Below the pieces are notes generated by a model. The model saw nothing but the letters and a program-made list of their open reading frames with translations, was not told the origin of the DNA and searched no databases. Below are positions 3,870-20,000 of a stretch of DNA of 20,000 nucleotides, one piece after another; positions within the stretch are counted from its first letter, which is position 1; each line of letters opens with the position of its first letter. The stretch lies in the IMG/VR virus record IMGVR_UViG_3300042356_001581; one strand, written 5' to 3'. The stretch is from an uncultured virus (IMG/VR IMGVR_UViG_3300042356_001581). Its lineage: Duplodnaviria > Heunggongvirae > Uroviricota > Caudoviricetes. Made by a program: the position numbers and the translations under genes.

Positions 3870-3875
3870 TGTTTT

Positions 3876-4214: not shown

Positions 4215-4227
4215 AATTTTAAGCTTT

Positions 4228-4247: not shown

Positions 4248-4254
4248 GATTATT

Positions 4255-5172
4255 TTATACAGTAGTTACTAATGTTGGTAACGCATCAACAATGATGTTG
4301 TAGGCGTTTAAGTTCTTTCTATAACCCGAACCAACCATTACATTTTCCAGCCCTTTATCTTCTTTTACATCTTGATGGTTAGTTTTCCAAGTTACTGCAT
4401 TAAAAAGACCCCATAAAGTTTGACCGTGAGAGTTTAGTTCTGATTCAAGTATTTTGCTGAATTTAGCGATGTCGTTTACTTTTTTAGTAGAAAAGTCTTT
4501 AGTTTCTTTATCAAAATCTTCTTCGGAAAATTTGAATAAATCAGCAATAACTTTTTTGGTAACTGCGGTATTGATTTTAGTATCAGCCATACGCTTGTAG
4601 TTATCCATAAGACTGCTTTCCGCTTTTAACACTCTTCTAATTTCTTCTCTAGCCAATTCAACTCTTTGTTGAGCAGAAGCACTGTGTCTAAATCGGTTTA
4701 CTTCTTTCATAGCCATATAGAATGTATTTTGACAAACTACAACAGTATTGGTAAATCCAAAACCGATTGAAGAAGAACCATCGTGACTGTTTAAACCAGT
4801 GATATATCTTTTAATTGTATCGTTAGCGATTTGAGTATCTAACAACTGTGCTTGGTAATAAACTTTCTTACCACCGTAAAGCTCTCCACCTCTAAATTTT
4901 TCACTAATATCCATTGATGCTTCGATGATGTTTTCAGCCAAAGTAGCGTTCTGCATCATTTCGTAAGTTTTACCAACAGTACCTAACCATTTGTTATTAT
5001 CATTACGGTAAATACCAAATGATTCAGTAGGATAGCCGTCAGGACAAGCTAAAGGTTTTTTTGTAACACCCCAAGTAGTTTTGGTGTCAGATAATAACTC
5101 AAAAGTTTTGTTGTAGATTTCTGTTTTGTCAACTACCACTTCTTGTGTTTGTGCGGTTTGAATTGCTTCCAT
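4255..5172 (-). CDS. DUF932/DUF945-family phage/plasmid protein
   Basis: Motifs LGTVGKTY...QN, NSHDGSSS, VVCQNT, RHS and TLWGLFNAVT are characteristic of this family (recognised from memory). Confidence 0.8.
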   Translation of the reverse strand: MEAIQTAQTQEVVVDKTEIYNKTFELLSDTKTTWGVTKKPLACPDGYPTESFGIYRNDNNKWLGTVGKTYEMMQNATLAENIIEASMDISEKFRGGELYGGKKVYYQAQLLDTQIANDTIKRYITGLNSHDGSSSIGFGFTNTVVVCQNTFYMAMKEVNRFRHSASAQQRVELAREEIRRVLKAESSLMDNYKRMADTKINTAVTKKVIADLFKFSEEDFDKETKDFSTKKVNDIAKFSKILESELNSHGQTLWGLFNAVTWKTNHQDVKEDKGLENVMVGSGYRKNLNAYNIIVDALPTLVTTV

Positions 5173-5209
5173 AGTTTTAAGAATTTGTTGTTATTAAGTT
5201 TCTTGAGTA

Positions 5210-5217
5210 CAAATATA
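5210..5217 (-). promoter_or_regulatory. Bacteroidota -7 promoter element TATATTTG
   Basis: TAnnTTTG match 38 bp upstream of the DUF932 start, in an AT-rich intergenic region. Confidence 0.55.
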
Positions 5218-5310
5218 AAAACTTATTTAGAATAAAAAAACTTATTTATAATATTTTTATATTTTTTTTTATTTTTATTAAAATGGACAATGTTCTTTTT
5301 TGGGAATCAA

Positions 5311-5502
5311 TTATAATTTACTTCTTAAAAAATTAAGTGAATAAAATTTACTCGCAACAACATAACCTATTGTACTTCCTTTTAATATTTGCTTGATTAA
5401 CTTGCCAGACTGTAAATTGTAACACAATCCGCATTTTGTAAACACGTAATTTGTAGCGAAATTTAAACGGTAGTTTGCAATATAATTTACAGTAATAGTC
5501 AT
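5311..5502 (-). CDS. Small hypothetical protein (weak NUMOD4/HNH N-terminus-like)
   Basis: 63 aa; YVFTKCGLCYNLQSGKLIK pattern. Confidence 0.5.
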   Translation of the reverse strand: MTITVNYIANYRLNFATNYVFTKCGLCYNLQSGKLIKQILKGSTIGYVVASKFYSLNFLRSKL

Positions 5503-5526
5503 AGTTAATTGTGTATTAAAGTTACT

Positions 5527-5548
5527 GTTAGCGGATAGTTAGCGGATA
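5527..5548 (+). repeat. Tandem GTTAGCGGATA x2 at the array start; candidate attI-like entry site
   Basis: Exact 11 bp direct repeat; the first cassette core GTTA (5538) has no preceding hairpin. Confidence 0.5.
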
Positions 5549-5592
5549 TGGCAGTAGAACCGAAGAACTACCGCCAAATCCAAGTAACAAGA

Positions 5593-5811
5593 TTACTTTT
5601 TAAAAGAAAACTTATCTCCTAAAATCTCTAATCTTTGACCTAAAACTTGCAAATACTCATTCATCAATCTTGATTGTTTGTAAAGCAAATCTTTGTTTTG
5701 TCGGTCTAAATCAACAAAAGCCTGTGTACGCATAAAATCATTTAAGGAATTTGTTTTAGTTGCCAATTCTTGCGCTTCAATAAGAAGTCTGTCGTAAAAT
5801 GAATCTCCCAT
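5593..5811 (-). CDS. Cassette 1: small helical phage protein (crAss001_48-like)
   Basis: RL..E..EL......L..F.....F..L.....LL..Q...M..Y..VL..R pattern recalled from that family. Confidence 0.6.
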   Translation of the reverse strand: MGDSFYDRLLIEAQELATKTNSLNDFMRTQAFVDLDRQNKDLLYKQSRLMNEYLQVLGQRLEILGDKFSFKK

Positions 5812-5869
5812 AATATTTGTGTTTGGGTTTTATAACTCCGCCCAGAAGTTTAGTGGAAGCCACATCCGC

Positions 5870-5994
5870 TAACAGCTTGTATAGTTAATGCGGTCTATGG
5901 CTTAATTTATTGTTCAGTTTGCACTTGGATTGTTCGGTCTTGAATGGAATTATTCGGCTTATTTTTCCGCACTAACCATATAAGCGAACCGTTA
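5870..5994 (+). repeat. Hairpin site A1
   Basis: TAAC-agcttgtatagttaatgcgg ... ccgcactaaccatataagc-gaacc-GTTA. Confidence 0.85.
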
Positions 5995-6008
5995 TATACA
6001 ATAAAAAT

Positions 6009-6386
6009 TTACCATCGCTCTTTTTTGAATATAATTTGTTTATCTAATTTTATTTGATGTATGGTGTGAAATGTCCGTTCTTTTACATATTTTTTAAATG
6101 TGTTGAAAACTTCTTCCGATACCATTTTACTTTTCACATAATAAATATATGGACTTTTACCACTCATATCATCTCTCCACATATTAAAACCATATCTTTC
6201 CCCATTAGGAAAATTATGTCTATGTTCGTGAATTAAATTATATTTTTTTGATTTAGCTTTATATGGTTTAAATTTACTAATAGCATCTACCATTAATTTA
6301 ATATTCTCAATATCATTTTCATCCACATCTGATTTAAGATATGTGAAATCACCATCATTTGTATCAACTTTTATATTTATTATCAT
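6009..6386 (-). CDS. Cassette 2: hypothetical protein
   Basis: 125 aa ORF bounded by IR gttatatacaataaaaat / atttttactgtatataac. Confidence 0.7.
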   Translation of the reverse strand: MIINIKVDTNDGDFTYLKSDVDENDIENIKLMVDAISKFKPYKAKSKKYNLIHEHRHNFPNGERYGFNMWRDDMSGKSPYIYYVKSKMVSEEVFNTFKKYVKERTFHTIHQIKLDKQIIFKKERW

Positions 6387-6428
6387 AATATTATTTTAAA
6401 ATTATCCAACGCACATTTTTACTGTATA

Positions 6429-6476
6429 TAACAAAGTGTAAAAAACATTAAAACGATTTTTTACACTCAACCGTTA
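6429..6476 (+). repeat. Hairpin site A2 (shortest, 48 bp)
   Basis: TAAC-aaagtgtaaaaaa ... ttttttacact-caacc-GTTA. Confidence 0.8.
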
Positions 6477-6485
6477 TGTGCAAGG

Positions 6486-7292
6486 CTACGAAACTGCATC
6501 TAAACGACTATTCGTTATTTCAATAGCCATTGGATTAATGTCGCAACCTATAAAATTTCGGTTCAGTTCTTTACAAACTACTGCTGTTGTTCCCGAACCT
6601 AAATAGTAATCTGCAACTGTATCACCTTCATTTGAACTTGCTTTTATTATTCGTTCTATTAATGCTTTTGGCTTTTGGGTTGGGTATTTTGAATACTCTT
6701 TTGAATTGCCTTTAAGTGTGTGTATTACCATCCAATCTTCCATAATTTTACCTCCGTTTTTAGATAAAGGGCTGTCGGCTTTACCCATCATTGAGTTACT
6801 TCCATACTTACCTCTTTCTTTACTACTTTCGGAATAATCTGTTAATACGCTTTGCCAATTAAATGTATAATCTTTAGTTTTTGCGTAAGAAAATATATTA
6901 TCGTGTTTTGCATTAAATCTCCTTTTGTTGTTGTTTGGCATAGTGTAGCACCATATAATTTCATTTACAAAATTATCATACCCAAAAATATCATCCATTA
7001 TCAACCTAATCCAATGGGATATTCTATAATCCATTTGTAAATAGATAGTACCTGTGCTTTTTAATACTCGGTGCATTTCTTTTAATCGTGGTAAATAATG
7101 TGCTTCAATTTCACTTCTAATCGGTTTTAAGTCTTGGTAATCTCCAAAGTTTCTGCCAGTTCCATAAAGAATATCACAATAAATCAAATCTACACTTTCA
7201 TCAGGTTGCGACAAAAGGAGTTCAAGGTTATCAACCGCCCTGCACATAACACGGGTTTGGCAAAATGGCTGTTCAGTAATTCTATCAATCAT
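6486..7292 (-). CDS. Cassette 3: N6-adenine/N4-cytosine DNA methyltransferase (beta class)
   Basis: Motif IV-like CDILYG at the N-terminus, YPTQKP, motif I DYYLGSGTT, FIGCDIN. Confidence 0.88.
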   Translation of the reverse strand: MIDRITEQPFCQTRVMCRAVDNLELLLSQPDESVDLIYCDILYGTGRNFGDYQDLKPIRSEIEAHYLPRLKEMHRVLKSTGTIYLQMDYRISHWIRLIMDDIFGYDNFVNEIIWCYTMPNNNKRRFNAKHDNIFSYAKTKDYTFNWQSVLTDYSESSKERGKYGSNSMMGKADSPLSKNGGKIMEDWMVIHTLKGNSKEYSKYPTQKPKALIERIIKASSNEGDTVADYYLGSGTTAVVCKELNRNFIGCDINPMAIEITNSRLDAVS

Positions 7293-7366
7293 TCGTTTTT
7301 AATTTTAAAGTTTAGTAATTCTATTTAGCTTCGGGTTCAGCCACTTCACCAAGCCCGATAACGTTA
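7247..7366 (+). repeat. Hairpin site A3 (contains start codon of 6486..7292)
   Basis: TAAC-acgggtttggcaaaatggctg ... cagccacttcaccaagcccg-ataac-GTTA. Confidence 0.88.
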
Positions 7367-7597
7367 GGTGTAATGCCACTCCGCCACTTCACTTCTATCA
7401 AAATGTGTTTGACGTGAAAAATGTTTAGTCCACCAAGCAAAGGCACGAAATGAACCTCCCCATAAATGCTCATAATATCCTCGATACCATTTTTCACCTA
7501 CTTTAAATTTTAACTCGTAATATGATGAAGGCACTACACCTAACAGCACATTGCCAAAAGTGGGGGTTATCGTTTTTAAATCAGCTTTTACACTCAT
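7364..7597 (-). CDS. Cassette 4: hypothetical protein
   Basis: 77 aa; stop codon is the TTA of the GTTA core; start lies in hairpin A4. Confidence 0.65.
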   Translation of the reverse strand: MSVKADLKTITPTFGNVLLGVVPSSYYELKFKVGEKWYRGYYEHLWGGSFRAFAWWTKHFSRQTHFDRSEVAEWHYT

Positions 7598-7666
7598 ATC
7601 AAATTTTGTATTTCAATTAAAGTTTAGTGGTATAAAGCCCCACCTTCGGCAATCTGCAAAACGTTA
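7541..7666 (+). repeat. Hairpin site A4
   Basis: TAAC-agcacattgccaaaagtgggg ... ccccaccttcggcaatctgc-aaaac-GTTA. Confidence 0.88.
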
Positions 7667-7681
7667 GCAGTAATATTGTGG

Positions 7682-7921
7682 CTACTTACCAATAGGTCTA
7701 TTGCAAGTTGCACAGATATAACTACCATTCATTAAATAACATTGAGATTGTTGACAGCCACAATACATACTGCTAACATCGGCTATACGCAAGTTTTTTG
7801 CTTCCGTTAGTCGGTTAATAACATTGTTTGCCTCTATCAACATTTCAATCAATTTGTCTTTTTCTACCATTTGATACATCTCTACTTTTTCAGAGTGTGT
7901 CATTTCAATTACTTGCATCAT
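7682..7921 (-). CDS. Cassette 5: small protein with Cys-rich C-terminus
   Basis: 79 aa; CGC...C...CATC at the C-terminus; first ~49 aa encoded within hairpin A5. Confidence 0.6.
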   Translation of the reverse strand: MMQVIEMTHSEKVEMYQMVEKDKLIEMLIEANNVINRLTEAKNLRIADVSSMYCGCQQSQCYLMNGSYICATCNRPIGK

Positions 7922-7981
7922 ATATTTTAATTTTAGTGTTTCAAATTCGCAAAAAACCTGACGTATAGCCGAGAACCGTTA
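7774..7981 (+). repeat. Hairpin site A5 (longest, 208 bp)
   Basis: TAAC-atcggctatacgcaagttttttgc ... gcaaaaaacctgacgtatagccga-gaacc-GTTA. Confidence 0.85.
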
Positions 7982-7984
7982 TGG

Positions 7985-8287
7985 TTAATATTTGTATTCT
8001 GCTATTTTAGAAGCTAATCCCCAACTTTGCAACTTACCACCGTAGTTAGATATAAATCTAAATACATCGCCCATATAAGTAGGTTCAGATGGTGTATAAA
8101 TATAAGTTCCTGCAATAGTTTCTAATCGTAATTTCCAAGTATGATTATCTTTAAAAACTTTCGCATCGAAACCCATACATAGTTTTAATTCTTCTGCAAT
8201 TAAATTACATTTTTCTTCATTAAACATACTAACCATAACACTCGTTTGGCTCAATGCCTTATTTTCGTTTATATCGTTTTTCATCAC
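7985..8287 (-). CDS. Cassette 6: hypothetical protein
   Basis: 100 aa; start (GTG 8287 or ATG 8284) in hairpin A6. Confidence 0.65.
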   Translation of the reverse strand: MMKNDINENKALSQTSVMVSMFNEEKCNLIAEELKLCMGFDAKVFKDNHTWKLRLETIAGTYIYTPSEPTYMGDVFRFISNYGGKLQSWGLASKIAEYKY

Positions 8288-8352
8288 GTTTTATTTTTAA
8301 TTAGATAATTTAGTTTTCATAACTCGGCACTAAGCCAAGCGAGGGAACGTTA
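8236..8352 (+). repeat. Hairpin site A6
   Basis: TAAC-actcgtttggctcaatgcc ... ggcactaagccaagcgag-ggaac-GTTA. Confidence 0.88.
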
Positions 8353-8571
8353 GCAACTATGCTCTAATTTGTATATTTTCTCTATTTCATCTACTCTTAA
8401 TGGGTCACAATATCTACCTCTTTGATAATTAACAACTCTAAATATGTATTTTTCGGTTAATTTATGTCTTTCTTCCCAATTGACTTTATTCCACCAAGCA
8501 ATAGCACAATTGCTAACAGCATTTTGTGGCAATTGCGGGGTTTGGATTTCTTTTTCCATTTTAGTTTTCAA
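8350..8571 (-). CDS. Cassette 7: hypothetical protein (likely ATG at 8559)
   Basis: Stop codon is the TTA of the core; start in hairpin A7. Confidence 0.6.
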   Translation of the reverse strand: MKTKMEKEIQTPQLPQNAVSNCAIAWWNKVNWEERHKLTEKYIFRVVNYQRGRYCDPLRVDEIEKIYKLEHSC

Positions 8572-8643
8572 TTTAAAGATTAGTATTTTTTTGTATGGTA
8601 TGTGTTAATTCGTCCGCAACTAACCACAAGATGCAAAACGTTA
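8514..8643 (+). repeat. Hairpin site A7
   Basis: TAAC-agcattttgtggcaattgcgg ... ccgcaactaaccacaagatgc-aaaac-GTTA. Confidence 0.85.
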
Positions 8644-8647
8644 TGCC

Positions 8648-8947
8648 TTATTTTGAAGAACGAGACGAACCAAAAGTTAAGATACCTGCTCCAAGAACAA
8701 AACCGAAGTTATACCAACCTCCATTGTTATTATAAGCATAAAATGCAATATCATCAGAAAATAAACTACCAATAAATGAAATTGGCGCAACTATTCCGTG
8801 CCATAAACCGCCCCAAAATCCATAAGGAGAACTTGTAATACAATCTTGTACGTGTGGGCTTACATCGGCACAAGAAGTTAAAGAAAGAAAAACAAGGCAT
8901 AACAGCCATTTGGCAAGATTGCGGGTTAATTTTGTGTTTTGAAACAT
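8648..8947 (-). CDS. Cassette 8: putative lipoprotein/membrane protein
   Basis: Lipobox-like LTSC after a hydrophobic stretch; GFWGGLWHG and GWYNFGF hydrophobic segments. Confidence 0.75.
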   Translation of the reverse strand: MFQNTKLTRNLAKWLLCLVFLSLTSCADVSPHVQDCITSSPYGFWGGLWHGIVAPISFIGSLFSDDIAFYAYNNNGGWYNFGFVLGAGILTFGSSRSSK

Positions 8948-9029
8948 AGTTTTTAAATTTAAAGATTAGTAATATTTTGCGTGTTTGGGTCTTGAATCGT
9001 CCGCAACCTCGCCAAGTGGCAGGACGTTA
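8900..9029 (+). repeat. Hairpin site A8
   Basis: TAAC-agccatttggcaagattgcgg ... ccgcaacctcgccaagtggc-aggac-GTTA. Confidence 0.88.
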
Positions 9030-9038
9030 GGCGCAATG

Positions 9039-9215
9039 CTAATCCAAGACACCTGCCAACCAAATTGGACAAAATATAAGCCAGTACAAAAATCGTTCTT
9101 GTAAACTGACTGCTAAGTTGTCTTTACCTATTGTTTTGCAATCATTCCTCCAAATCAAATAGAATGGAATAAAAAGAACTATTTGCAGTAATACACATAT
9201 CAATATTTTGTTCAT
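9039..9215 (-). CDS. Cassette 9: 58 aa two-TM membrane protein (not in the ORF track)
   Basis: Read manually: MNKILICVLLQIVLFIPFYLIWRNDCKTIGKDNLAVSLQERFLYWLIFCPIWLAGVLD*; fills cassette 9026-9249. Confidence 0.7.
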   Translation of the reverse strand: MNKILICVLLQIVLFIPFYLIWRNDCKTIGKDNLAVSLQERFLYWLIFCPIWLAGVLD

Positions 9216-9245
9216 TTTGTTTCAATTTGTGAGAAGCACTGCACC

Positions 9246-9333
9246 TAACAGCACATAGGCAATAGTTGCCAGAAACCTCTCGGTTAATAATTTAATTTAT
9301 CGTAGGCAACCATCGCCTATCTGCAAAACGTTA
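9246..9333 (+). repeat. Hairpin site A9
   Basis: TAAC-agcacataggcaatagttgcc ... ggcaaccatcgcctatctgc-aaaac-GTTA. Confidence 0.88.
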
Positions 9334-9552
9334 TGGTTTATGCTTCGATTGGTTTTCATAAGAACTTATATTTTTGCTCATATTGAAATAAATAATTGTA
9401 AAAACAATTGCTCCAAATGTTACGATTCCCCAATCTCCAATTTTATCAGATGCTTTATATGTAAATAATGCCGTTCCAAACCAACACATAATCGAACACC
9501 ATTTCATTTGTCTTTTAAAGTTTTTCGCTTCTTTAATAAATTCTTCACTCAT
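9331..9552 (-). CDS. Cassette 10: small two-TM membrane protein
   Basis: 73 aa, two hydrophobic helices; stop codon is the TTA of the core. Confidence 0.7.
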   Translation of the reverse strand: MSEEFIKEAKNFKRQMKWCSIMCWFGTALFTYKASDKIGDWGIVTFGAIVFTIIYFNMSKNISSYENQSKHKP

Positions 9553-9583
9553 TACGTTTTCGTTTTATGAACCGCACTAACCA

Positions 9584-9710
9584 TAACAAGTGTTTGGCAA
9601 AAAAGCGGGTTCGGTTATTAATTTAAAATTTGTTTTGTGTCTTTATAATTCAGGCTTAATCGAAGTTTTATGCTTTCTTAATCGCTTCTTCGCCAAGCAC
9701 TCGAACGTTA
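9584..9710 (+). repeat. Hairpin site A10
   Basis: TAAC-aagtgtttggcaaaaaagcg ... cgcttcttcgccaagcact-cgaac-GTTA. Confidence 0.85.
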
Positions 9711-10502
9711 GTGGCAATACTCCGAAGCCCTCCGAACAGCGACATCGTAATATTGTTTTTCCTTTTCTATTCCAATTGATTTGCGATTTAATTTGATACA
9801 AGCCAAGTTTGTTGTACCGCTTCCTGTTGTGTTATCCAATACCATATCACCTTCATTAGTATATGATTTCACAAGCATTTCAAGTAAAGCAAGTGGTTTC
9901 TGTGTTGGGTGTATCGTTCCATCAAGTTTTGTTTTTTGTTTATCTGAAGCAAAAACTTGTACACTTCTTGGGTATCTGTCAGTTTCTCCGCCACCGCTTA
10001 CATCTTGCTTTACTTTTCCATACACTTCTGTTTTATTGCAAACTTCGGCTTTCTTGGTATAGGTATTTACAGGCTTATGTCCTTCTGTTTTTTGTGGATT
10101 AAACTTTGGTGTTTTATTGTAAAATACTAAAATGTTTTCGTGTGCTTTCATAGGCATTTTCTTTGCATTAAAATATCCTGTTGCTTGTGTTTTCTCCCAA
10201 ATCCATTCGTATTTTAACCATTCCAAATTTGAGCAACCAAGCACTTTATCAAATGGTGTTTGTGCAAATAAAATTACCACCCCATTATAATTTAGTATTC
10301 GTTTATATTGTTCCCAAAGTTTATTCAAATCCAAAACAGAATCCCATTTGCAGTTAGTAGTACCATAAGGCAAATCGCAAATAATAGCATCAATTGATTT
10401 ATCCTCAATAAAAGGAAAAACATCGAAACAATCTGCGTTCACAAAAGTACTGCCACTAACACGGGTTTGGCAAAATGGCTGTTCAGTAATTCTATCAATC
10501 AT
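9708..10502 (-). CDS. Cassette 11: N6-adenine/N4-cytosine DNA methyltransferase (beta class)
   Basis: ICDLPYG, YEWIWEK, HPTQKP, LDNTTGSGTT, IGIE. Confidence 0.92.
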   Translation of the reverse strand: MIDRITEQPFCQTRVSGSTFVNADCFDVFPFIEDKSIDAIICDLPYGTTNCKWDSVLDLNKLWEQYKRILNYNGVVILFAQTPFDKVLGCSNLEWLKYEWIWEKTQATGYFNAKKMPMKAHENILVFYNKTPKFNPQKTEGHKPVNTYTKKAEVCNKTEVYGKVKQDVSGGGETDRYPRSVQVFASDKQKTKLDGTIHPTQKPLALLEMLVKSYTNEGDMVLDNTTGSGTTNLACIKLNRKSIGIEKEKQYYDVAVRRASEYCH

Positions 10503-10527
10503 TAGTTTTTAATTTAAAGATTAGTTT
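10457..10527 (+). repeat. Truncated hairpin site A11 (left half, copy of A3)
   Basis: First 47 nt identical to 7247-7293; right arm and GTTA core absent. Confidence 0.75.
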
Positions 10528-10854
10528 TTACTTAGTCGTTATCCGTAACAACAAAATACACCACCCGACTTTATCCGACTTCATAAAATCTTGTATTTCA
10601 GAAATTAGTTGCTCTTTAGTTTCAGTTACAAATTCTTGCCTTCCATCAGGTTGTGGATTTCCATTATTCATTTTGTAGGCAAACCAAATTTTAGCATAAT
10701 ATTCACTACTTTCTTCATCAGGATTTTCCACTATACAAGATTTTATTCTACTATCAAGCGAAGTTATCTCATCAGAAGTAACTGCACCTAACAGTGGTTT
10801 TGACTTATTGCCACATTCGGCTTCATTTAATGATTGTTTTGTACTTGTATTCAT
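10528..10854 (-). CDS. Cassette 12: hypothetical protein
   Basis: 108 aa; start in hairpin A12. Confidence 0.65.
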   Translation of the reverse strand: MNTSTKQSLNEAECGNKSKPLLGAVTSDEITSLDSRIKSCIVENPDEESSEYYAKIWFAYKMNNGNPQPDGRQEFVTETKEQLISEIQDFMKSDKVGWCILLLRITTK

Positions 10855-10917
10855 TGGTTTTTAATTTAAAGATTAGGTCTTATTTTATTGGCAACAAGAC
10901 AAAGCCACCAAACGTTA
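10789..10917 (+). repeat. Hairpin site A12
   Basis: TAAC-agtggttttgacttattgcca ... tggcaacaagacaaagccac-caaac-GTTA. Confidence 0.85.
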
Positions 10918-10926
10918 TGAGCAAGT

Positions 10927-11229
10927 TTACTGACCGTCTTCGTAAAGACTCATTTCAAAACCGTGAGAGTAAAAATCTCCAAGTCCACCCGCATCAATAA
11001 CTATTTTGAAATTATAATCTTCGTGAGAAACTACAATTTGAGTTCCTTCATCATCTTCTATGTTTTCAGTTGGTATTCCAACACATTCTATAAAGTGTTG
11101 CATACTTTGATTATTATCCATACTCATATTATCATTTTCATTAATAATACGATATGATGTTTCTCCTTTTGCAAATTCATCAAACATTTGTGTTATCGAA
11201 TTTGGTATCTCATAAATTTCTGTTTTCAT
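10927..11229 (-). CDS. Cassette 13: acidic hypothetical protein
   Basis: 100 aa ORF; IR gttatgagcaagtt / aacctgctcataac. Confidence 0.7.
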   Translation of the reverse strand: MKTEIYEIPNSITQMFDEFAKGETSYRIINENDNMSMDNNQSMQHFIECVGIPTENIEDDEGTQIVVSHEDYNFKIVIDAGGLGDFYSHGFEMSLYEDGQ

Positions 11230-11263
11230 AATAATATTTTGTTTAAATTACACAACCTGCTCA

Positions 11264-11391
11264 TAACAGCAATTTGGCAATATGTCGGTTTTGGTCTTTA
11301 ATTTAATAGTTGTTTTGTACTTGTAGAAATTCGGTATTTCCGAATGTATTAGCTTCCTTAAACCGACACATCGTCAAGTTGCATAACGTTA
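11264..11391 (+). repeat. Hairpin site A13
   Basis: TAAC-agcaatttggcaatatgtcggttt ... aaaccgacacatcgtcaagttgc-ataac-GTTA. Confidence 0.88.
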
Positions 11392-11400
11392 GTAGCAAGA

Positions 11401-11625
11401 CTACGTTTTATCTTTCAAAGACAAAACCTTGAATGTTGGGTAGCCTTTAGGTATTCCAAAACCAAAACCAATATAAACAGAATGATGTCCCCAACATAAA
11501 CCTATTCCGTAAACACTTACGATTTCTAATATAGTCAATACTCCAAATAAATATGGTGTAATTGCAAAATCTTCTTTATTTAATTTGGTATTTTGATAAC
11601 CTCCTATAATTTTTGGTTTTCTCAT
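11401..11625 (-). CDS. Cassette 14: small hydrophobic hypothetical protein
   Basis: 74 aa ORF filling the cassette. Confidence 0.65.
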   Translation of the reverse strand: MRKPKIIGGYQNTKLNKEDFAITPYLFGVLTILEIVSVYGIGLCWGHHSVYIGFGFGIPKGYPTFKVLSLKDKT

Positions 11626-11662
11626 TTCAATAATATTTAGTTTTAATAATCCGTCCAGCTAC

Positions 11663-11735
11663 TAACACACGTTTGTAGCTAGTGGAGGAATCTACACTTC
11701 CGAATACGCCACCATCTACAAGCGTTGGAAGGTTA
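11663..11735 (+). repeat. Hairpin site A14
   Basis: TAAC-acacgtttgtagctagtgg ... ccaccatctacaagcgt-tggaag-GTTA. Confidence 0.8.
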
Positions 11736-11742
11736 GCAGTAA

Positions 11743-11937
11743 TTATTCCCAATCTTCCTTATCAGCTTGAGTTTCTGCCATTACAGCTATTATTTGCCTT
11801 TCACGTTCTGTAAATTCAAACCAATTAGTTTGCCAATCGTAAGGAACGTAATTTCTCCAATCGTGAACTTTTCCTTTTTCTTCAAACTTTGGATTTTCAA
11901 TATCTATTAATTCTGTAAAATTTTCAAATATGTTCAT
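11743..11937 (-). CDS. Cassette 15: hypothetical protein
   Basis: ATG at 11937 (MNIFENF...) preferred to TTG at 11967; HDWRNYVP motif. Confidence 0.65.
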   Translation of the reverse strand: MNIFENFTELIDIENPKFEEKGKVHDWRNYVPYDWQTNWFEFTERERQIIAVMAETQADKEDWE

Positions 11938-11961
11938 CTCGTTTAGTATTATAACTACTGC

Positions 11962-12087
11962 TAACAACGGTTATACAATAGTTGGGTTAATTGTTTAATT
12001 TAAAGTCTGTTTTGTGTCGAGATAATTTGTGTTAATCGGAAAATTACGGCTATCTTATCCCAACCATCGTATAGCCGTCAAACGTTA
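11962..12087 (+). repeat. Hairpin site A15
   Basis: TAAC-aacggttatacaatagttggg ... cccaaccatcgtatagccgt-caaac-GTTA. Confidence 0.88.
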
Positions 12088-12096
12088 GCAGTAATA

Positions 12097-12993
12097 CTAT
12101 ATTCCATCTCCGAATGAAGTCACTACATTAAAATCTTTTTCTTTTCTTTTTTCTTCCACCCTCTTTAAAGAAATATTAAAATAATCCATATTATTCTCAA
12201 TTCCGATAAAGTTCCTATTTGTGTTTATACAGGCAATTCCTGTTGTCATTGAGCCACCAAACATATCTAAAACAGTTTGATATTCTTTTGTGAAAGTTTT
12301 TATTAAGTTTTCCATTAGTTTTAACGGCTTTTGGGTTTCGTGTAACTTGTCTGAAATATGCGAACTTTCTTCAATTAAATTTGTTTTGTAAATTTCAGAA
12401 GAAAAAGTACCTGTACCATACTTCAAATAACAATCTGTAATAGTTCCACCAATCTTATATGGCTTAAACATATACACAATTGGTTCTACTATTGGTGCTA
12501 AATTACCCAATCTTCTATTATCGCTATAATCTGAATTTCTTTTACCTATTACTTGACCTATCCTTTGTGCTTTAAATGGTGCTTTTTTCTTATTCCAACT
12601 AATTACATCTTTTAATATTAGACCGCTATTTTCTCCTGCAACCGTAAACCTATGTTGATATTGCCTTCCTGTAAAACATAATATTGGAGACGCAGGTTTC
12701 ATAATTCGATAACACTCTTTTAAAAAACTTTCGCAAAATATTTGAAATTCAATACTTATTTGCTTGTCTTTATCACTCCATCCATTTTTAGGCTTACCTC
12801 TACTTTTAAATATTTTACTATTTTGTTGCGCAGGGGAACTCCCTAATAATGCAGTATTGGTATTAGAATGTTTAACATCCCAATCACTAAATGAAATCCC
12901 ATAAGGAATATCTGAAATTATAGCATCAATACTTTCATCTGCTATCAATTTCATTTGTTCTATTGCATCTCCGTATCTTAAATCTATTGTCAT
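12097..12993 (-). CDS. Cassette 16: N6-adenine/N4-cytosine DNA methyltransferase (beta class)
   Basis: ISDIPYG, HETQKP, LDMFGGSMTT, FIGIE. Confidence 0.9.
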   Translation of the reverse strand: MTIDLRYGDAIEQMKLIADESIDAIISDIPYGISFSDWDVKHSNTNTALLGSSPAQQNSKIFKSRGKPKNGWSDKDKQISIEFQIFCESFLKECYRIMKPASPILCFTGRQYQHRFTVAGENSGLILKDVISWNKKKAPFKAQRIGQVIGKRNSDYSDNRRLGNLAPIVEPIVYMFKPYKIGGTITDCYLKYGTGTFSSEIYKTNLIEESSHISDKLHETQKPLKLMENLIKTFTKEYQTVLDMFGGSMTTGIACINTNRNFIGIENNMDYFNISLKRVEEKRKEKDFNVVTSFGDGI

Positions 12994-13087
12994 AATTTTA
13001 TTTTAATATTTTGCCATCGCTTTAAAAAAGAAAAGAAAAAGGTTCAGTTCTCCGAATGAGCATTTGTGGTTAATTACCGTACTACTG

Positions 13088-13148
13088 TAACACCACCTAT
13101 ACGCAAGTTTTGTGAAAAACAAAACCTGACGTATAGCTGTAAACGTTA
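13088..13148 (+). repeat. Hairpin site A16
   Basis: TAAC-accacctatacgcaagttttgt ... acaaaacctgacgtatag-ctgtaaac-GTTA; arms related to A5. Confidence 0.8.
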
Positions 13149-13152
13149 GCCG

Positions 13153-13605
13153 TCATTCTAAAACGACCGCATCCAACGACTTTAATCTGTTTAAAATATA
13201 AAGGTTTGGTCTTATGTATTTATTTTCTCTTCTGAATTGTTCTTTGTCGATTTCTGACAAAAATTTATCATACAAAAAAGTTGCAACCGCACCGCTTCGA
13301 GAAATTCCAGCAGAACAATGAACCATAAATACTGACTTTTCTTTATGTTTTTCGATAAAATCAACTATTTCTTTTAGTTCTTTATCATTTGGTTTTTCAT
13401 ATTTTAACTCACCATTTTCATATAAATCTTCTTCAATATCCCACATTTTAACTTGCAGAAAATTGTCTATTGATTTATCAAATTTTTGCTCGTTATTATC
13501 AATATCGAGTATTGAAATAAAACAAGCATAGTCGTAATATTTAAACTCTTTATCAGTAAAGTTTTTATCGAAAACTAATTTTGGTATTGCTTTTATTTGC
13601 TTCAT
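13153..13605 (-). CDS. Cassette 17: protein-tyrosine/dual-specificity phosphatase-like protein
   Basis: Catalytic HCxxGxxRS motif (VHCSAGISRS) and a C-terminal PN motif. Confidence 0.85.
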   Translation of the reverse strand: MKQIKAIPKLVFDKNFTDKEFKYYDYACFISILDIDNNEQKFDKSIDNFLQVKMWDIEEDLYENGELKYEKPNDKELKEIVDFIEKHKEKSVFMVHCSAGISRSGAVATFLYDKFLSEIDKEQFRRENKYIRPNLYILNRLKSLDAVVLE

Positions 13606-13638
13606 TTTAAATTATTTAGTGGAAAAAGAACGAACGGC

Positions 13639-13756
13639 TAAAAAAGTGTATAAGCAATAACCGTTAGGCGTTTTTAACTATTGCGGTTGTTAATATTTAT
13701 TTTATATTTCTAATCAAGTTTTGTGTTCGGCAACTTCGCCAAGCCTACAAAAGTTA
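13639..13756 (+). repeat. Degenerate hairpin site A17
   Basis: Core reads TAAA instead of TAAC; right end acttcgccaag-cctacaaaa-GTTA does not pair with the left arm. Confidence 0.55.
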
Positions 13757-13972
13757 TAAAGCATTTAAAGCTGTAACTATTTTATTCGCCATTTCATCAC
13801 AATATTCTTCGCCGTTATCATAAACTAAATGGCAAACCACTTTATTCATATCGTTGTCTATAATTGCGAATAAAGCAAAGTCAGCTACAATTACTTTATT
13901 GATAGAAAAACGGCTTATAACAGCGGTTTTTCCGTATTGTGGAATTTGGGTATTTTTTAAAAGCTTAGTCAT
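13754..13972 (-). CDS. Cassette 18: hypothetical protein
   Basis: 72 aa; stop codon is the TTA of the core; start lies in the half-site beginning at TAAC 13918. Confidence 0.65.
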   Translation of the reverse strand: MTKLLKNTQIPQYGKTAVISRFSINKVIVADFALFAIIDNDMNKVVCHLVYDNGEEYCDEMANKIVTALNAL

Positions 13973-13990
13973 AACTTTAAAATTTAATTA

Positions 13991-18854: not shown

Positions 18855-18889
18855 TTGGTTCAATTTATTGAATGGTGCTTAGTAAATAG

Positions 18890-19090
18890 TTATGCAACAG
18901 TTTGCGAAAGAGTAAACCGAGTAAATTTTGTTTCTAAATCTTCTTCAGTTGTGTATTTAAAATTTATAGAATCTAGTAATTTTTTAAAGTTTTCGGCATC
19001 AGAAGACAATAAGCGAATAGTCTTTTTTTCTTGGAATAGCTCAAGCGTTTTACCCCAGCTTGGATTTGGTATTATAGTTGTGATTTTCAT
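18890..19090 (-). CDS. Cassette 19: hypothetical protein
   Basis: 66 aa; stop codon is the TTA of the core. Confidence 0.6.
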   Translation of the reverse strand: MKITTIIPNPSWGKTLELFQEKKTIRLLSSDAENFKKLLDSINFKYTTEEDLETKFTRFTLSQTVA

Positions 19091-19124: not shown

Positions 19125-19251
19125 TAACAATATATTGTAGCAATTAAGGCTTTGGTTATTAATTTATTTATGTTCTTGTACTTGGTTTTATTGGGTCTTT
19201 AATCGAAGCATAAGGCTTTCTTATCCTTAACTGCTACAATAATGAACGTTA
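19125..19251 (+). repeat. Hairpin site A19
   Basis: TAAC-aatatattgtagcaattaagg ... ccttaactgctacaata-atgaac-GTTA. Confidence 0.85.
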
Positions 19252-19263: not shown

Positions 19264-19485
19264 TTACGCATCTAACCACCTTTCAATTTCATTTGGTTTA
19301 TATGTTTTACCTGCAAGTGCTACCCAAAATTGGTTATGTTTATTAAATTTTAATGGTTGTCTAACCCCATCAGCATAACATATAAACCAAAGATTTTCGG
19401 TAGGTGTTCTATCGTCACCATTAACCCACAAACTACCGCTAACAGCAGGTTTATTCAATGCGGATTTTTCGTTATTATTGTTCAT
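19264..19485 (-). CDS. Cassette 20: hypothetical protein
   Basis: 73 aa; start in hairpin A20. Confidence 0.65.
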   Translation of the reverse strand: MNNNNEKSALNKPAVSGSLWVNGDDRTPTENLWFICYADGVRQPLKFNKHNQFWVALAGKTYKPNEIERWLDA

Positions 19486-19564
19486 TTCTGCTTCTATTTA
19501 ATTTTTTTATTAGTTTGAAATATTGTGCTTCTAAGTCCACACTAAATAAACCTGCGAACCGTTA
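19440..19564 (+). repeat. Hairpin site A20
   Basis: TAAC-agcaggtttattcaatgcgga ... tccacactaaataaacctgc-gaacc-GTTA. Confidence 0.88.
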
Positions 19565-19573: not shown

Positions 19574-20000
19574 CTACATTCCATCTACGAATGAAGTTAC
19601 TACGTTAAATTCTTTTTCTTTTCTTTTTTCTTCCACCCTCTTTTTTGAAGTATTGAAATAGTTTTCATCTAATTCAATACCAATGAAATTACGTTTTGTA
19701 TTCATACAGGCAATTCCAGTTGAGCAACTACCCATAGTCAAATCAACAACTAAATTACCCTCGTTGCTGAAAGTCTTTATCAAATCTTCTAAAAGCAATA
19801 TCGGTTTTTGTGTTGGGTGTAATCCATCATAATCTTTTTTGTATTCCAAAACATTGCTTTTAAACTTACCACCTTCCCATAAGTTGAATGTTGCTCTATA
19901 TTTTAAATCCATTTTTTCTATTTCATCAAATGGTTTCAAAAAATAACCAGTAATGCTTAATTTTTCATAATGTTTTTTTATTGGAAAAGCCCATTGCTTT
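19574..20000 (-). CDS. Cassette 21: DNA methyltransferase, C-terminal part (5' end outside the window)
   Basis: Frame open to the window edge; HPTQKP, VDLTMGSCST, FIGIELD. Confidence 0.88.
   Translation of the reverse strand, partial: KQWAFPIKKHYEKLSITGYFLKPFDEIEKMDLKYRATFNLWEGGKFKSNVLEYKKDYDGLHPTQKPILLLEDLIKTFSNEGNLVVDLTMGSCSTGIACMNTKRNFIGIELDENYFNTSKKRVEEKRKEKEFNVVTSFVDGM

What the first reader, a model, noticed from the sequence alone, without database searches (positions are those of the whole stretch)
5538..13990. Integron-like gene-cassette array in a Bacteroidota phage-like region, with no integrase in view
Seen: 18 consecutive segments each carry exactly one gene, begin GTTA and end TAAC (cassette 12 lacks its GTTA end; cassette 17 ends TAAA). 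They are separated by imperfect hairpins TAAC...GTTA: A1 5870-5994, A2 6429-6476, A3 7247-7366, A4 7541-7666, A5 7774-7981, A6 8236-8352, A7 8514-8643, A8 8900-9029, A9 9246-9333, A10 9584-9710, A12 10789-10917, A13 11264-11391, A14 11663-11735, A15 11962-12087, A16 13088-13148. Hairpin sequences differ but structure is conserved, and I saw no such motif in flanking genes (1-5500, 14000-18880). Established: integron attC sites are sequence-variable, structure-conserved hairpins bounded by RYYYAAC...GTTRRRY. Inference: a phage-borne system for capturing and shuffling accessory genes, using a tyrosine recombinase encoded elsewhere in the phage or by the host.
Basis: partly seen in the sequence, partly recalled or inferred. 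Interest (0 to 1): 0.95.

Follow-up and report, generated by a model that had tools for sequence, protein, structure and literature searches.

The report
Integron-like gene-cassette array in a phage
This stretch of a lake-water flavobacterial-type phage is a row of 18 single-gene cassettes joined by folded DNA recombination sites, a phage version of a bacterial integron that lets such phages swap accessory genes such as DNA methylases.

Summary
I found two decayed ones in the array (10449-10549, 13650-13764) and two in a second array (19125-19251, 19440-19564). They are far beyond chance and covary strongly (94.5% of cells paired; 16 of 18 stem pairs change on both sides).

Near-identical Baltic Flavobacterium phages gain, lose, replace and move single cassettes exactly at the TAAC box. 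Of 136 in-array breakpoints, 94 lie within 5 nt of a TAAC, against 7.4% expected.

The same site family fills arrays in many uncultured phages and in Flavobacteriaceae chromosomes. In a minority of these a short Xer-like tyrosine recombinase sits at one fixed end of the array. It lacks the extra domain of integron integrases.

This window has no recombinase, and neither does a complete Muminvirus genome, so the enzyme probably acts in trans. That step is inferred.

In phage arrays the genes lie on the folding strand, so each hairpin precedes its gene. In 9 of 19 cases the hairpin holds the start codon.

Qi et al. 2023 reported phage CALINs, including one phage with this site family. This scan has met the system before on other DNA.

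Verdict: a real, integron-like array and a new variant of a known kind. The recombinase and its activity are untested.

The parts
5538..5541 (-). Terminal TAAC of array 1, followed by TATCCGCTAACAGTAAC and no hairpin; candidate attI-like end
   Evidence: Read. Homology to the G015 cassette ends exactly here. Compared with other array ends.
5593..5811 (-). Cassette 18 gene, crAss001_48-related protein
   Evidence: Pfam PF21825, 3.8e-15. The same cassette is 88.5% identical in the unrelated phage record G015.
5870..5994 (-). Hairpin A1
   Evidence: R1 94.6 bits (trained); fold.
6009..6386 (-). Cassette 17 gene, unknown
   Evidence: no family.
6429..6476 (-). Hairpin A2, short class
   Evidence: R1 31.9 bits, untrained. 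Its loop resembles a Polaribacter phage P12002L site.
6486..7292 (-). Cassette 16 gene, N6/N4 DNA methyltransferase; ATG lies inside hairpin A3
   Evidence: PF01555, 4e-52. In L142 a 64% identical homologue with the same N-terminus is the last cassette before a recombinase.
7247..7366 (-). Hairpin A3
   Evidence: R1 104 bits (trained).
7364..7597 (-). Cassette 15 gene, unknown; start inside A4
7541..7666 (-). Hairpin A4
   Evidence: R1 106.6 bits. DNA fold z = -3.5 on the minus strand, -1.7 on the plus strand.
7682..7921 (-). Cassette 14 gene, unknown; start and first ~48 codons lie inside the A5 loop
7774..7981 (-). Hairpin A5, 208 nt with a long loop
   Evidence: Arm fold -21 kcal/mol. Missed by R1.
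7985..8287 (-). Cassette 13 gene, unknown; start inside A6
8236..8352 (-). Hairpin A6
   Evidence: R1 96.3 bits.
8350..8571 (-). Cassette 12 gene, unknown; start inside A7
8514..8643 (-). Hairpin A7
   Evidence: R1 111.3 bits.
8648..8947 (-). Cassette 11 gene, phrog_30702 membrane-like protein; start inside A8
   Evidence: PHROG 2.4e-36.
8900..9029 (-). Hairpin A8
   Evidence: R1 108.4 bits.
9039..9215 (-). Cassette 10 gene, small hydrophobic protein
9246..9333 (-). Hairpin A9, 88 nt
   Evidence: R1 62.7 bits, untrained. z = -5.8 on the minus strand, -2.6 on the plus strand.
9331..9552 (-). Cassette 9 gene, small membrane-like protein
   Evidence: 89% identical protein in IMG/VR locus L047.
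9584..9710 (-). Hairpin A10
   Evidence: R1 125.6 bits.
9708..10502 (-). Cassette 8 gene, N6/N4 DNA methyltransferase; start inside the half-site
   Evidence: PF01555, 2e-32. Relatives sit in Muminvirus arrays.
10449..10549 (-). Half hairpin: the 3' arm is identical to that of A3 and the 5' arm is lost
   Evidence: R1 32 bits; read.
10528..10854 (-). Cassette 7 gene, unknown; start inside A12
10789..10917 (-). Hairpin A12
   Evidence: R1 121.2 bits.
10927..11229 (-). Cassette 6 gene, unknown
11264..11391 (-). Hairpin A13
   Evidence: R1 113.4 bits.
11401..11625 (-). Cassette 5 gene, unknown
11663..11735 (-). Hairpin A14, short (TAACC variant)
   Evidence: R1 44.5 bits, untrained.
11743..11967 (-). 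Cassette 4 gene, phrog_9546 (annotated RecX-like filament modulator)
   Evidence: PHROG 7e-11.
11962..12087 (-). Hairpin A15
   Evidence: R1 116.6 bits.
12097..12993 (-). Cassette 3 gene, N6/N4 DNA methyltransferase
   Evidence: PF01555, 4.6e-35. The cassette 12081-13150 matches Flavobacterium phage mymlan6-1 in two pieces (91-95% identical), bounded TAAC to TAAC.
13088..13148 (-). Hairpin A16, 61 nt
   Evidence: R1 38 bits, untrained. z = -6.2.
13153..13605 (-). Cassette 2 gene, dual-specificity phosphatase-like
   Evidence: PF00782, 5e-8, just under its cut-off; PF00102 above its cut-off.
13650..13764 (-). Decayed hairpin
   Evidence: R1 25.8 bits, E = 0.007.
13754..13972 (-). Cassette 1 gene, unknown; preceded only by a lone GTTA
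18889..18892 (-). Terminal TAAC of a second array (TAAC then TATTTAC, no hairpin)
   Evidence: Read.
18890..19090 (-). Second array, last cassette gene
19125..19251 (-). Second-array hairpin
   Evidence: R1 83.6 bits.
19264..19485 (-). Second-array cassette gene; start inside its hairpin
19440..19564 (-). Second-array hairpin
   Evidence: R1 101.6 bits.
19574..20000 (-). Second-array methyltransferase gene, cut by the window end
   Evidence: PF01555, 4.7e-21.

Best explanation
The region is an integron-like cassette array in a phage. Each unit is a structure-conserved, sequence-variable imperfect hairpin followed by one gene. The hairpin reads 5'-YTAAC, then a GTT-N bulge, a 4-bp stem, a 1x1 mismatch, a stem of about 14 bp, a loop, the returning stem and TGTTA-3'. 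The coding (minus) strand is the one that folds. Two fixed G:T pairs and most other wobble pairs favour that strand. Site-specific recombination crosses over in the TAAC box of the 5' arm of the folded strand. That position is geometrically the same as the AA|C cleavage in the bottom strand of a classical attC. Units of hairpin plus downstream gene are thereby excised, inserted, replaced and moved to a hairpin-less terminal TAAC site at the downstream end of the array. The likely enzyme is a short Xer/XerA-like tyrosine recombinase, found at that same end of such arrays in some phages and in Flavobacteriaceae chromosomes. This window has none, so the enzyme would act in trans, from elsewhere in the phage, a co-infecting phage or the host. 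Because phage cassette genes lie on the folding strand, the hairpin sits in front of its gene and its AT-rich loop supplies the translation start. In 9 of 19 cases the loop holds the ATG itself, and the protein is read through the 3' arm and the GTTA. Cargo includes four DNA methyltransferases, which suggests a store of anti-restriction and other accessory genes. Shown here: the sites, their covariation, the breakpoints on TAAC, cassette movement between near-identical isolates, and the linkage of a recombinase in a subset. Inferred: the folded single-strand mechanism, which enzyme acts on this array, and expression from the loop.
For: Strand asymmetry: 13 of 15 window hairpins fold better on the minus strand, and 5 of 5 do so with the fold tool. 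R1 gives plus-strand scores of 24 bits or less, against 26-126 bits on the minus strand. G:T pairs are fixed in 26 of 27 sequences at two alignment columns.

Breakpoints were taken from 12 loci of Baltic Flavobacterium phages whose backbones are 98-100% identical. Of 136 in-array HSP-end clusters, 94 lie within 5 nt of a coding-strand TAAC, 108 within 10 nt and 129 within 25 nt. Random positions give 7.4%, 14.5% and 31.7%. Outside the arrays, 0 of 39 clusters lie within 10 nt.

Individual events support the same unit. Between mymlan6-1 and mumin6-1 a methyltransferase was replaced and a 500-bp cassette inserted, and all four junctions sit at TAACG. Compared with lillamy9-1, lillamy9-7 has lost a 288-nt-gene cassette precisely from mid-array and carries it at the terminal TAAC|TACAAT site. 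The pairs sniff9-1/9-2 and mumin6-1/6-3 each differ by one cassette.

The window's own cassettes travel. The stretch 12081-13150 matches mymlan6-1 from TAAC to TAAC. The crAss001_48 and methyltransferase cassettes recur in the otherwise unrelated complete phage record G015, in the opposite order.

Spread: R1 gives 308 hits at E<=1e-3 in 80 IMG/VR loci. It hits 101 of 151 sampled genomes of a Flavobacteriaceae-family sample at E<=1e-5. Chromosomal arrays carry more than 20 sites per 20 kb.

Recombinase: 6 of 71 array-bearing virus records have a 270-298-aa Xer-like recombinase directly after the last cassette, on the hairpin strand. A relative lies at the same end of 5 of 8 bacterial array ends examined. 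The catalytic R, K, HxxR, H and Y residues are invariant in the 7 phage proteins.

Published support: Qi et al. 2023 (PMC9892861, passages read) showed that IntI1 recombines the bottom strand of P12002L_attC2. The intergenic hairpins of that phage belong to this site family by inspection and give only weak R1 scores.
Against: No recombinase lies in this 20-kb window. The rest of the genome could not be found.

A complete Muminvirus genome has none either. Most virus records that are at least 90% complete and carry arrays also lack one: 11 of 17 have no PF00589 hit.

A minority of breakpoints lie at the 3' GTTA box instead. These are 7 of 136 clusters, the A3/half-site pair in the window, and the upstream edge of the crAss001_48 cassette. 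A single crossover point does not explain them.

The 136 clusters collapse to far fewer independent junctions. There are 68 unique contexts among all 175 clusters, and HSP ends are only approximate.

R1 was trained on these sites, so trained hits carry no weight.

The G:T-rich stems would also fold in the mRNA, so an RNA-level role is not excluded.

Among the 79 closest recombinase loci found in species-representative genomes, only 3 had R1 sites nearby.
Confidence: 0.77

Rival explanations
1. The hairpins are mainly RNA-level or expression elements: translation control that sequesters the start codon, RNA processing or stabilising stem-loops, or weak terminators. On this view cassette shuffling is a by-product of homologous or illegitimate recombination between similar linker sequences, as proposed for the promoter-stem-loop linkers of T4-type phages (recalled, not checked here).
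For: The stems fold best on the transcribed strand and are rich in G:T pairs, which are G:U in RNA. They start right after stop codons, and 9 of 19 contain the next start codon. No recombinase lies in the window or in mumin6-1.
Against: Breakpoints fall on a 4-7-nt core, not across the longer similar arms. One cassette was excised precisely and re-inserted at a hairpless terminal TAAC site. In bacterial arrays the same sites sit on the strand opposite the genes: across 7 loci, 8 ORFs lie on the hairpin strand and 111 on the other. An mRNA role therefore cannot be the common function. A dedicated recombinase sits at a fixed array end in a subset. The array has no terminator-like site, against 3.8 expected. 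IntI1 recombines a site from a phage whose hairpins belong to this family.
Confidence: 0.1
2. It is an ordinary CALIN: true attC sites made and moved by a canonical integron integrase (IntI with its extra domain) of the host, and merely carried by the phage.
For: The AAC...GTT cores, the imperfect hairpin and the strand bias all fit. IntI1 recombined P12002L_attC2 in E. coli (PMC9892861). Qi et al. already call such clusters CALINs.
Against: Every recombinase found beside these arrays, 7 from phages and 4 from bacteria, scores below the integron-integrase cut-off: TIGR02249 gives 86-213 bits against 265. The match comes in two pieces that skip the IntI-specific segment. About 43 residues are missing relative to VchIntIA. 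The IntegronFinder 2.0 preprint reports only In0 elements and one complete integron in Bacteroidetes (passage). Phage cassette genes are inverted relative to the classical attC orientation, 335 against 3.
Confidence: 0.08
3. The hairpins are ends or remnants of small hairpin-dependent transposable elements of the IS200/IS605 or REP/RAYT type, moved by a Y1 HUH transposase.
For: Those elements also use single-strand hairpins and a tetranucleotide cleavage site (recalled).
Against: Eighteen array-bearing phage records, 17 of them at least 92% complete, give 0 hits to Y1_Tnp PF01797. There is one hairpin per gene, not paired ends. A tyrosine recombinase is the linked enzyme.
Confidence: 0.02

Closest known systems
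Integrons and CALINs (attC-bounded cassette arrays; IntI, attI, Pc), including sedentary chromosomal integrons
   Same: One gene per cassette. Sites are sequence-variable and structure-conserved imperfect hairpins with AAC...GTT cores. One strand is favoured for folding. The crossover lies in the AAC box of the 5' arm of the folded strand. Excised cassettes re-insert at a hairpin-less site at one end of the array. The recombinase gene sits at that end, and in phages it lies on the folded strand, as intI does in class 1 integrons (that geometry is from established knowledge). Host chromosomes carry very long arrays with near-identical sites.
   Different: The associated recombinase lacks the IntI-specific extra domain and scores as Xer/XerA-like. 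In phage arrays the genes lie on the folding strand, so the site precedes its gene and often contains its start codon. The site has a fixed GTT-N bulge and two fixed G:T pairs rather than the described extrahelical bases. Some breakpoints fall at the 3' GTTA box. No Pc promoter was identified.
Phage CALINs of Qi et al. 2023 (Front Microbiol 14:1091391; PMC9892861), notably Polaribacter phage P12002L
   Same: That phage's methyltransferase region carries short hairpins of this same family. One has nearly the same loop as window site A2. Its cargo is also methyltransferases. One of its sites was recombined by IntI1 (passages).
   Different: The paper reports 17 CALINs found with classical attC models. 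The words Flavobacterium, Bacteroidetes and Xer do not occur in its main text. It does not describe the scale of the family, cassette turnover between isolates, a linked recombinase or starts inside hairpins. I did not read its supplementary tables, which may list further phages.
Xer recombinases and the mobile units they move (XerC/D-dif, archaeal XerA, pdif modules; recalled)
   Same: The linked enzymes align end to end with XerA and XerC-like structures: 4a8e at 1.4e-44 and 5hxy at 1e-30. Their best NCBIfam model is XerA_Arch, at 144-232 bits.
   Different: Most score below that model's cut-off; 2 of 11 pass. They sit beside hairpin arrays rather than acting at a single chromosomal dif site, and the sites are long hairpins rather than 28-bp duplex sites.
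Promoter-stem-loop linkers (PeSLs) of hyperplastic regions in T4-type phages (recalled, not checked here)
   Same: Stem-loops between small accessory genes in phage plastic regions, proposed to mediate modular shuffling.
   Different: Those are thought to work by homologous recombination between conserved linkers. Here the stems covary, the breakpoints sit on a 4-nt core, and a recombinase is linked.

Membership tests
Integron (complete) | An integron integrase (IntI): a tyrosine recombinase with the IntI-specific additional domain, next to the array | tested here: not met
   No PF00589 hit among the window's ORFs. Recombinases beside related arrays score 86-213 bits on TIGR02249, against a cut-off of 265, in two pieces that skip the insert. 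About 43 residues are missing relative to VchIntIA.
Integron / CALIN | attC sites: imperfect hairpins with R''/R' cores (AAC...GTT), conserved in structure and variable in sequence | tested here: met
   All 27 aligned sites have TAAC and GTTA. 94.5% of cells pair, and 16 of 18 stem pairs covary. Bacterial relatives have YAAC...GTTR cores.
Integron / CALIN | Strand-selective folded site with unpaired spacer and extrahelical bases | tested here: inconclusive
   An asymmetric 4-nt bulge, a 1x1 mismatch and two fixed G:T pairs give strand bias. These are not the described extrahelical bases. Which strand is recombined was not tested.
Integron / CALIN | Cassette boundaries, meaning crossover in the AAC/GTT core | tested here: met
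   94 of 136 breakpoints lie within 5 nt of TAAC, against 7.4% expected. Single junctions were read.
Integron | An attI site where cassettes are inserted, next to the integrase | tested here: inconclusive
   A hairpin-less TAAC plus AT-rich sequence ends every array looked at. One cassette moved there in lillamy9-7. The motif is only loosely conserved.
Integron | Cassette ORFs promoterless, on the top strand, expressed from Pc | tested here: not met
   Phage cassette ORFs lie on the folding strand, 335 against 3, with some overlapping loci counted twice. Each has an AT-rich leader or an ATG in its own hairpin. Pc was not searched for.
CALIN (IntegronFinder definition) | At least two attC sites called by IntegronFinder's attC model, with no intI nearby | not testable with these tools
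   IntegronFinder and its attC model are not available here, and Rfam has no matching family (0 hits).
Xer-type recombinase (for the linked enzyme, not present in this window) | Full-length match to a XerA, XerC or XerD model above its cut-off | tested here: inconclusive
   XerA_Arch scores 144-232 bits against a cut-off of 220, and 2 of 11 proteins pass. XerC and XerD scores are far below their cut-offs.
IS200/IS605 or REP/RAYT hairpin elements | A linked Y1 HUH transposase | tested here: not met
   0 of 18 array-bearing phage records have a hit.

The most novel reading that the evidence does not exclude
Flavobacteriia and their phages share one non-IntI, Xer-like integron system, and the phages have turned it inside out. 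In host chromosomes the genes lie opposite the folding strand, as in classical integrons. In phage arrays every cassette is inverted. The recombination hairpin then becomes the 5' expression module, holding the leader, the start codon and sometimes the first residues of whatever gene lands behind it. Phages without the enzyme borrow it in trans during infection. They would use it to reshuffle anti-defence cargo such as methyltransferases within a single bloom season. The cassette differences between Baltic isolates, and their reported link to plating efficiency (PMC7077304, passage), suggest this.
Probability: 0.45. Interest if true: 0.9.

Novelty: new variant of a known kind. Interest (0 to 1): 0.8.

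Why it matters
Integrons are regarded as bacterial devices, rare in Bacteroidota and built around IntI. Here the same logic appears in two places. It occurs in phages that infect abundant aquatic Flavobacteriia. It also occurs in about two thirds of a sample of host-family genomes (101 of 151 with at least one site). In both places the linked recombinase is different and Xer-like.

The system offers a mechanism for the fast turnover of phage accessory and anti-restriction genes. A culturable test bed exists in the Baltic Flavobacterium phages and their hosts LMO6 and LMO9, where cassette differences between isolates are already in GenBank.

It also offers a natural case of a recombination site that doubles as a gene's start. 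That bears on how new cassettes and new N-termini arise. Finally, it implies that surveys based on IntI and classical attC models miss a large class of cassette arrays.

Tried and rejected
- **Rfam:** a scan of the window at E<=1 gave 0 hits.
- **Whole genome:** none is held for the window.
- **Relatives of the window's backbone:** the AAA ATPase found none in viral contigs.
- **The window's own contig:** a 46-base string from the window end was absent from viral contigs and metagenome contigs. The rest of this phage, and whether it has a recombinase, remain unknown.
- **Sequencing runs:** 24 lake-water metagenome runs hold 96-100% of the array's sampled words, all kept as contigs and many possibly the source. 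There is therefore no read-level test of excision or polymorphism.
- **Recombinase search in species-representative genomes:** this gave 79 loci, but only 3 had R1 sites within 8 kb (L153, L157, L160). My TAAC...GTTA scan found few arrays there. The host link came instead from scanning genomes with R1.
- **Sigma-70 promoter scan:** not enriched, 51 found against 43 +/- 7 expected, and not suited to Bacteroidota.
- **Y1 HUH transposase:** 0 of 18 records.
- **Cassette proteins elsewhere:** most of the window's small cassette proteins have no relative in the loci I held. 15 of 20 had no hit at >=60% coverage.
- **R1 sensitivity:** it is tuned to the ~125-nt class. It scores the short class weakly and missed A5.
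- **Literature:** searches found no description of a Xer-like cassette system in Bacteroidota or of these arrays in Flavobacterium phages. The Baltic phage paper has no occurrence of hairpin, integrase or palindrom.

Full report
**What is in the window.** The 20-kb window is AT-rich (about 31% G+C), and all its genes lie on the minus strand. Its flanks look like a tailed phage of Bacteroidota. They carry an RNase_T-type exonuclease, DUF932, a crAss001_48-related protein, an AAA ATPase, and many PHROG families of unknown function. Twenty-four lake-water metagenome runs hold the array almost word for word.

Between 13972 and 5538 lie 18 single-gene segments. They include three N6/N4 DNA methyltransferases, a dual-specificity phosphatase-like protein and a protein matching a PHROG annotated as a RecX-like modulator. 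The rest are mostly small proteins with no family. A fourth methyltransferase and two more cassettes form a second array from 18889 to the window end.

**The observation.** Read on the coding strand, each intergenic region starts with YTAAC right after, or overlapping, the upstream stop codon. It ends with TGTTA, and the two ends pair. My scan for TAAC...GTTA pairs with foldable arms finds 15 sites at <=-9.5 kcal/mol. Thirteen are in the array and two in the second array. Twenty dinucleotide shuffles give 0-3 each.

I aligned 27 sites of the ~125-nt class, 12 from the window and 15 from Baltic phages. They show a fixed architecture:
- TAAC(G) paired with (T)GTTA;
- a 4-nt bulge (TT-N-N) on the 5' side;
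- a 4-bp helix;
- a 1x1 mismatch;
- a helix of about 14 bp;
- a loop of about 80 nt.

In this alignment 94.5% of cells pair. Shuffling gives 66.9%, and sliding the partners gives 37-50%. Sixteen of 18 variable pairs change on both sides. Two positions are G:T in 26 of 27 sequences.

A covariance model built from this alignment (R1) was run with filters off over the window and the whole genome of Flavobacterium phage mumin6-1. In the window it finds 18 sites at E<0.01, all on the minus strand. Six of them were untrained, among them the half-site at 10449-10549 and a decayed site at 13650-13764. In mumin6-1 it finds 11 sites at E<1e-7, all within 2335-8243. Only weaker hits, at E>=0.017, lie elsewhere in that 38.5-kb genome. 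R1 misses A5, which has a long loop.

Plus-strand scores stay at or below 24 bits. Thirteen of 15 sites by my scan, and 5 of 5 with the fold tool, fold better on the minus strand. The array has no intrinsic-terminator-like site, against 3.8 expected.

**The decisive comparison.** A megablast of the window against GenBank phages gave only cassette-sized matches, all to Baltic Sea Flavobacterium phages. These phages (Muminvirus, Lillamyvirus, Hattifnattvirus; Nilsson et al. 2020, PMC7077304) have the same kind of array near the left end of their genomes.

Their backbones are 98-100% identical, so differences can be read base by base.
- Between mymlan6-1 and mumin6-1, one methyltransferase cassette is replaced and a 500-bp cassette is present or absent. 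All four junctions lie at CTAACG or TAACGTT.
- Lillamy9-7 differs from lillamy9-1 by the move of one cassette, a hairpin plus a 288-nt gene. It left mid-array precisely and sits at the array's end, next to the conserved junction TATAAC|TACAATATTACATG, which has no hairpin.
- The pairs sniff9-1/9-2 and mumin6-1/6-3 each differ by one cassette.

Over all ordered pairs of 12 loci I collected 136 in-array breakpoint clusters. Ninety-four lie within 5 nt of a coding-strand TAAC, 108 within 10 nt and 129 within 25 nt. Random positions give 7.4%, 14.5% and 31.7%. Outside the arrays, 0 of 39 lie within 10 nt.

These clusters are not independent events. The same junction recurs in several genomes: all 175 clusters give 68 distinct contexts. 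HSP ends are also approximate.

Seven clusters sit at the 3' GTTA box instead. So do two cases in the window. One is the pair A3 and the half-site, which share an identical 3' arm and diverge right after GTTA. The other is the upstream edge of the crAss001_48 cassette. I cannot explain this minority. Rare recombination of the other strand, or a second strand exchange, are possibilities.

**The window's own cassettes move.** The stretch 12081-13150 covers hairpin A16, a methyltransferase gene and the next TAAC. It matches mymlan6-1 in two pieces (91-95% identical). The homology begins at GCTAAC and ends at TAACGTT.

A complete 35.6-kb virus record (G015, direct terminal repeats, no tyrosine recombinase) shares nothing with the window except cassettes and hairpins. 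It carries the crAss001_48 cassette (5538-5864, 88.5%, ending exactly on the terminal TAAC) and the methyltransferase cassette (6469-7366). They stand in the opposite order.

**How widespread the sites are.** R1 finds 308 sites at E<=1e-3 in the 80 loci fetched, on contigs from 5 to 310 kb.

In a sample of 151 genomes from the family of a Mariniflexile genome (Flavobacteriaceae), 101 have at least one R1 hit at E<=1e-5. Fetched regions show chromosomal arrays with more than 20 sites on one strand in 20 kb. Their sites are near-identical and have YAAC...GTTR cores.

**The recombinase.** The window has none. The complete mumin6-1 genome has none, with 0 hits at E<=1 and a control of 14 of 14.

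Among 71 array-bearing virus records, 10 have a PF00589 hit. In six of them (G017, G026, G009, G042, G060, G052) it is a 270-298-aa protein directly downstream of the last cassette, on the same strand as hairpins and genes. In a seventh (G051) a relative lies 11 kb away. Three hits are unrelated integrases. In G017 the last cassette before the recombinase is a 64% identical homologue of the window's 6486-7292 methyltransferase, and it has the same N-terminus.

The seven proteins keep R, K, HxxR, H and Y. Their best family is XerA_Arch, at 144-207 bits against a cut-off of 220. The integron-integrase model TIGR02249 scores 86-165 bits against a cut-off of 265, and matches in two pieces. Against VchIntIA (2a3v), residues 18-174 and 202-274 align with 17-177 and 248-319. 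About 43 residues of IntI, the region of its specific insert, are therefore absent. The alignments to XerA and a XerC-like protein are continuous.

In bacteria, a relative with an extra 100-120 N-terminal residues lies at the same array end in 5 of 8 ends examined, but on the opposite strand. These are G165, G216, G214, G219 (truncated before the catalytic Tyr) and G191 (about 8 kb away).

Database names for close relatives are XerD or integrase. No Y1 HUH transposase occurs in 18 array-bearing phage records, 17 of them at least 92% complete.

**Geometry.** Take the folding strand as the reference. In classical integrons (established knowledge) the folded bottom strand reads 5'-RYYYAA|C...GTTRRRY-3' and is cut in its 5' arm. 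Cassettes enter at attI at the downstream end of that strand, and intI lies beyond attI on that strand. The cassette genes lie on the other strand.

The phage arrays match this in crossover position, insertion end, and recombinase position and strand. They differ in gene orientation. Within arrays of at least 3 sites, 335 ORFs lie on the hairpin strand and 3 on the other. Some overlapping loci are counted twice, and one pair of loci is the mumin phage itself.

The bacterial arrays have the classical gene orientation, with 8 ORFs on the R1 strand and 111 on the other across 7 loci. The strand call there rests on R1.

In phages, therefore, each site precedes its gene. In the window, 9 of 19 hairpin-preceded ORFs start inside the hairpin and are read through the 3' arm and GTTA, in two of the three frames. 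Two unrelated methyltransferases share the hairpin-encoded N-terminus MIDRITEQPFCQTRV. The loops carry an AT-rich leader such as CTAATCTTTAAATTAAAAAC before the ATG. That the loop drives expression is inference.

**What is in print.** Qi et al. 2023 (PMC9892861; passages read, supplements not) screened 10,705 phage genomes with IntegronFinder and HattCI. They reported 3 complete integrons, one In0 and 17 CALINs. One CALIN, with two methyltransferases, is in Polaribacter phage P12002L. IntI1 recombined the bottom strand of P12002L_attC2 with attI1 at frequencies like those of attCaadA7, and no recombinants were obtained for its top strand.

The intergenic hairpins of that phage belong to the family described here. 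One has almost the same loop as window site A2. I could not tell which of them is attC2.

That paper's main text has no occurrence of Flavobacterium, Bacteroidetes or Xer. The Baltic phage paper links methyltransferase content to plating efficiency but has no occurrence of hairpin, integrase or palindrom. The IntegronFinder 2.0 preprint reports only In0 elements and one complete integron in Bacteroidetes (passage). Four searches found no description of a Xer-like cassette system in Bacteroidota.

Earlier notes of this scan describe the same system on other genomes. They gave me the leads to the Xer-like recombinase and to Qi et al., both of which I then checked. The strand bias and the starts inside hairpins I had already seen before reading them.

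**Verdict.** The array is real, large and mostly intact: 15 good sites and 2 decayed ones, plus a second array. It is a recombinase-less member of an integron-like system shared by Flavobacteriia and their phages.

It works like an integron but fails the membership test on the integrase and on cassette orientation. Still open are which enzyme acts on this array, whether the folded single strand is the substrate, what the GTTA-side breakpoints mean, and whether the rest of this phage encodes the recombinase.

Noticed in passing
window 18889-20000: A second cassette array begins upstream of the backbone block 14000-18880. It has two hairpins, two small genes and a methyltransferase cut by the window end. 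The C-terminus of that methyltransferase resembles that of the 12097-12993 enzyme. This phage therefore has at least two arrays separated by about 5 kb of conserved genes.
   Followed up: partly
window 13991-15772: A 593-aa AAA ATPase (phrog_29662, annotated ATP-dependent protease) has a run of nine aspartates in its N-terminal half. It lies directly upstream of the first cassette. No relative was found in viral contigs.
   Followed up: partly
L144 2270-2545 (virus record G009): Between the last full hairpin and the terminal TAAC lies a 25-nt unit, itself a small inverted repeat bounded by GTTA...TAAC. It looks like an empty cassette.
   Followed up: no
L263, L258, L255 (genomes G165, G170, G191): Chromosomal array sites in three different Flavobacteriaceae genomes are about 90% identical to one another by eye. 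All include an inner perfect stem-loop (CTGAAAATCC....GGATTTTCAG). This resembles the homogeneous repeats of sedentary chromosomal integrons.
   Followed up: no
L257 10732-11832 and L252 7033-7812: Two array-linked recombinase genes in bacterial genomes look broken. One ends just before the catalytic tyrosine. The other loses the C-terminal catalytic region.
   Followed up: no
G075 (Aureispira MAG) and G076 (MAG labelled Saccharimonadales): R1 sites occur outside Flavobacteriaceae: 18 hits on 7 contigs of a Saprospiraceae-type MAG and 12 hits on 3 contigs of a 1.2-Mb MAG labelled Saccharimonadales. The latter may be mis-binned phage contigs. One carries a recombinase 71% identical to the phage type.
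   Followed up: partly
L032 and L089 (IMG/VR loci): These loci have R1 sites on both strands, which suggests two arrays in opposite orientation on one contig.
   Followed up: no
L005 versus L003 (hattifnatt9-1 versus mumin6-1): Two multi-gene blocks (129/168/297-nt genes and 171/156/228/~105-nt genes) stand in opposite order in the two phages. Units larger than one gene therefore also move.
   Followed up: no
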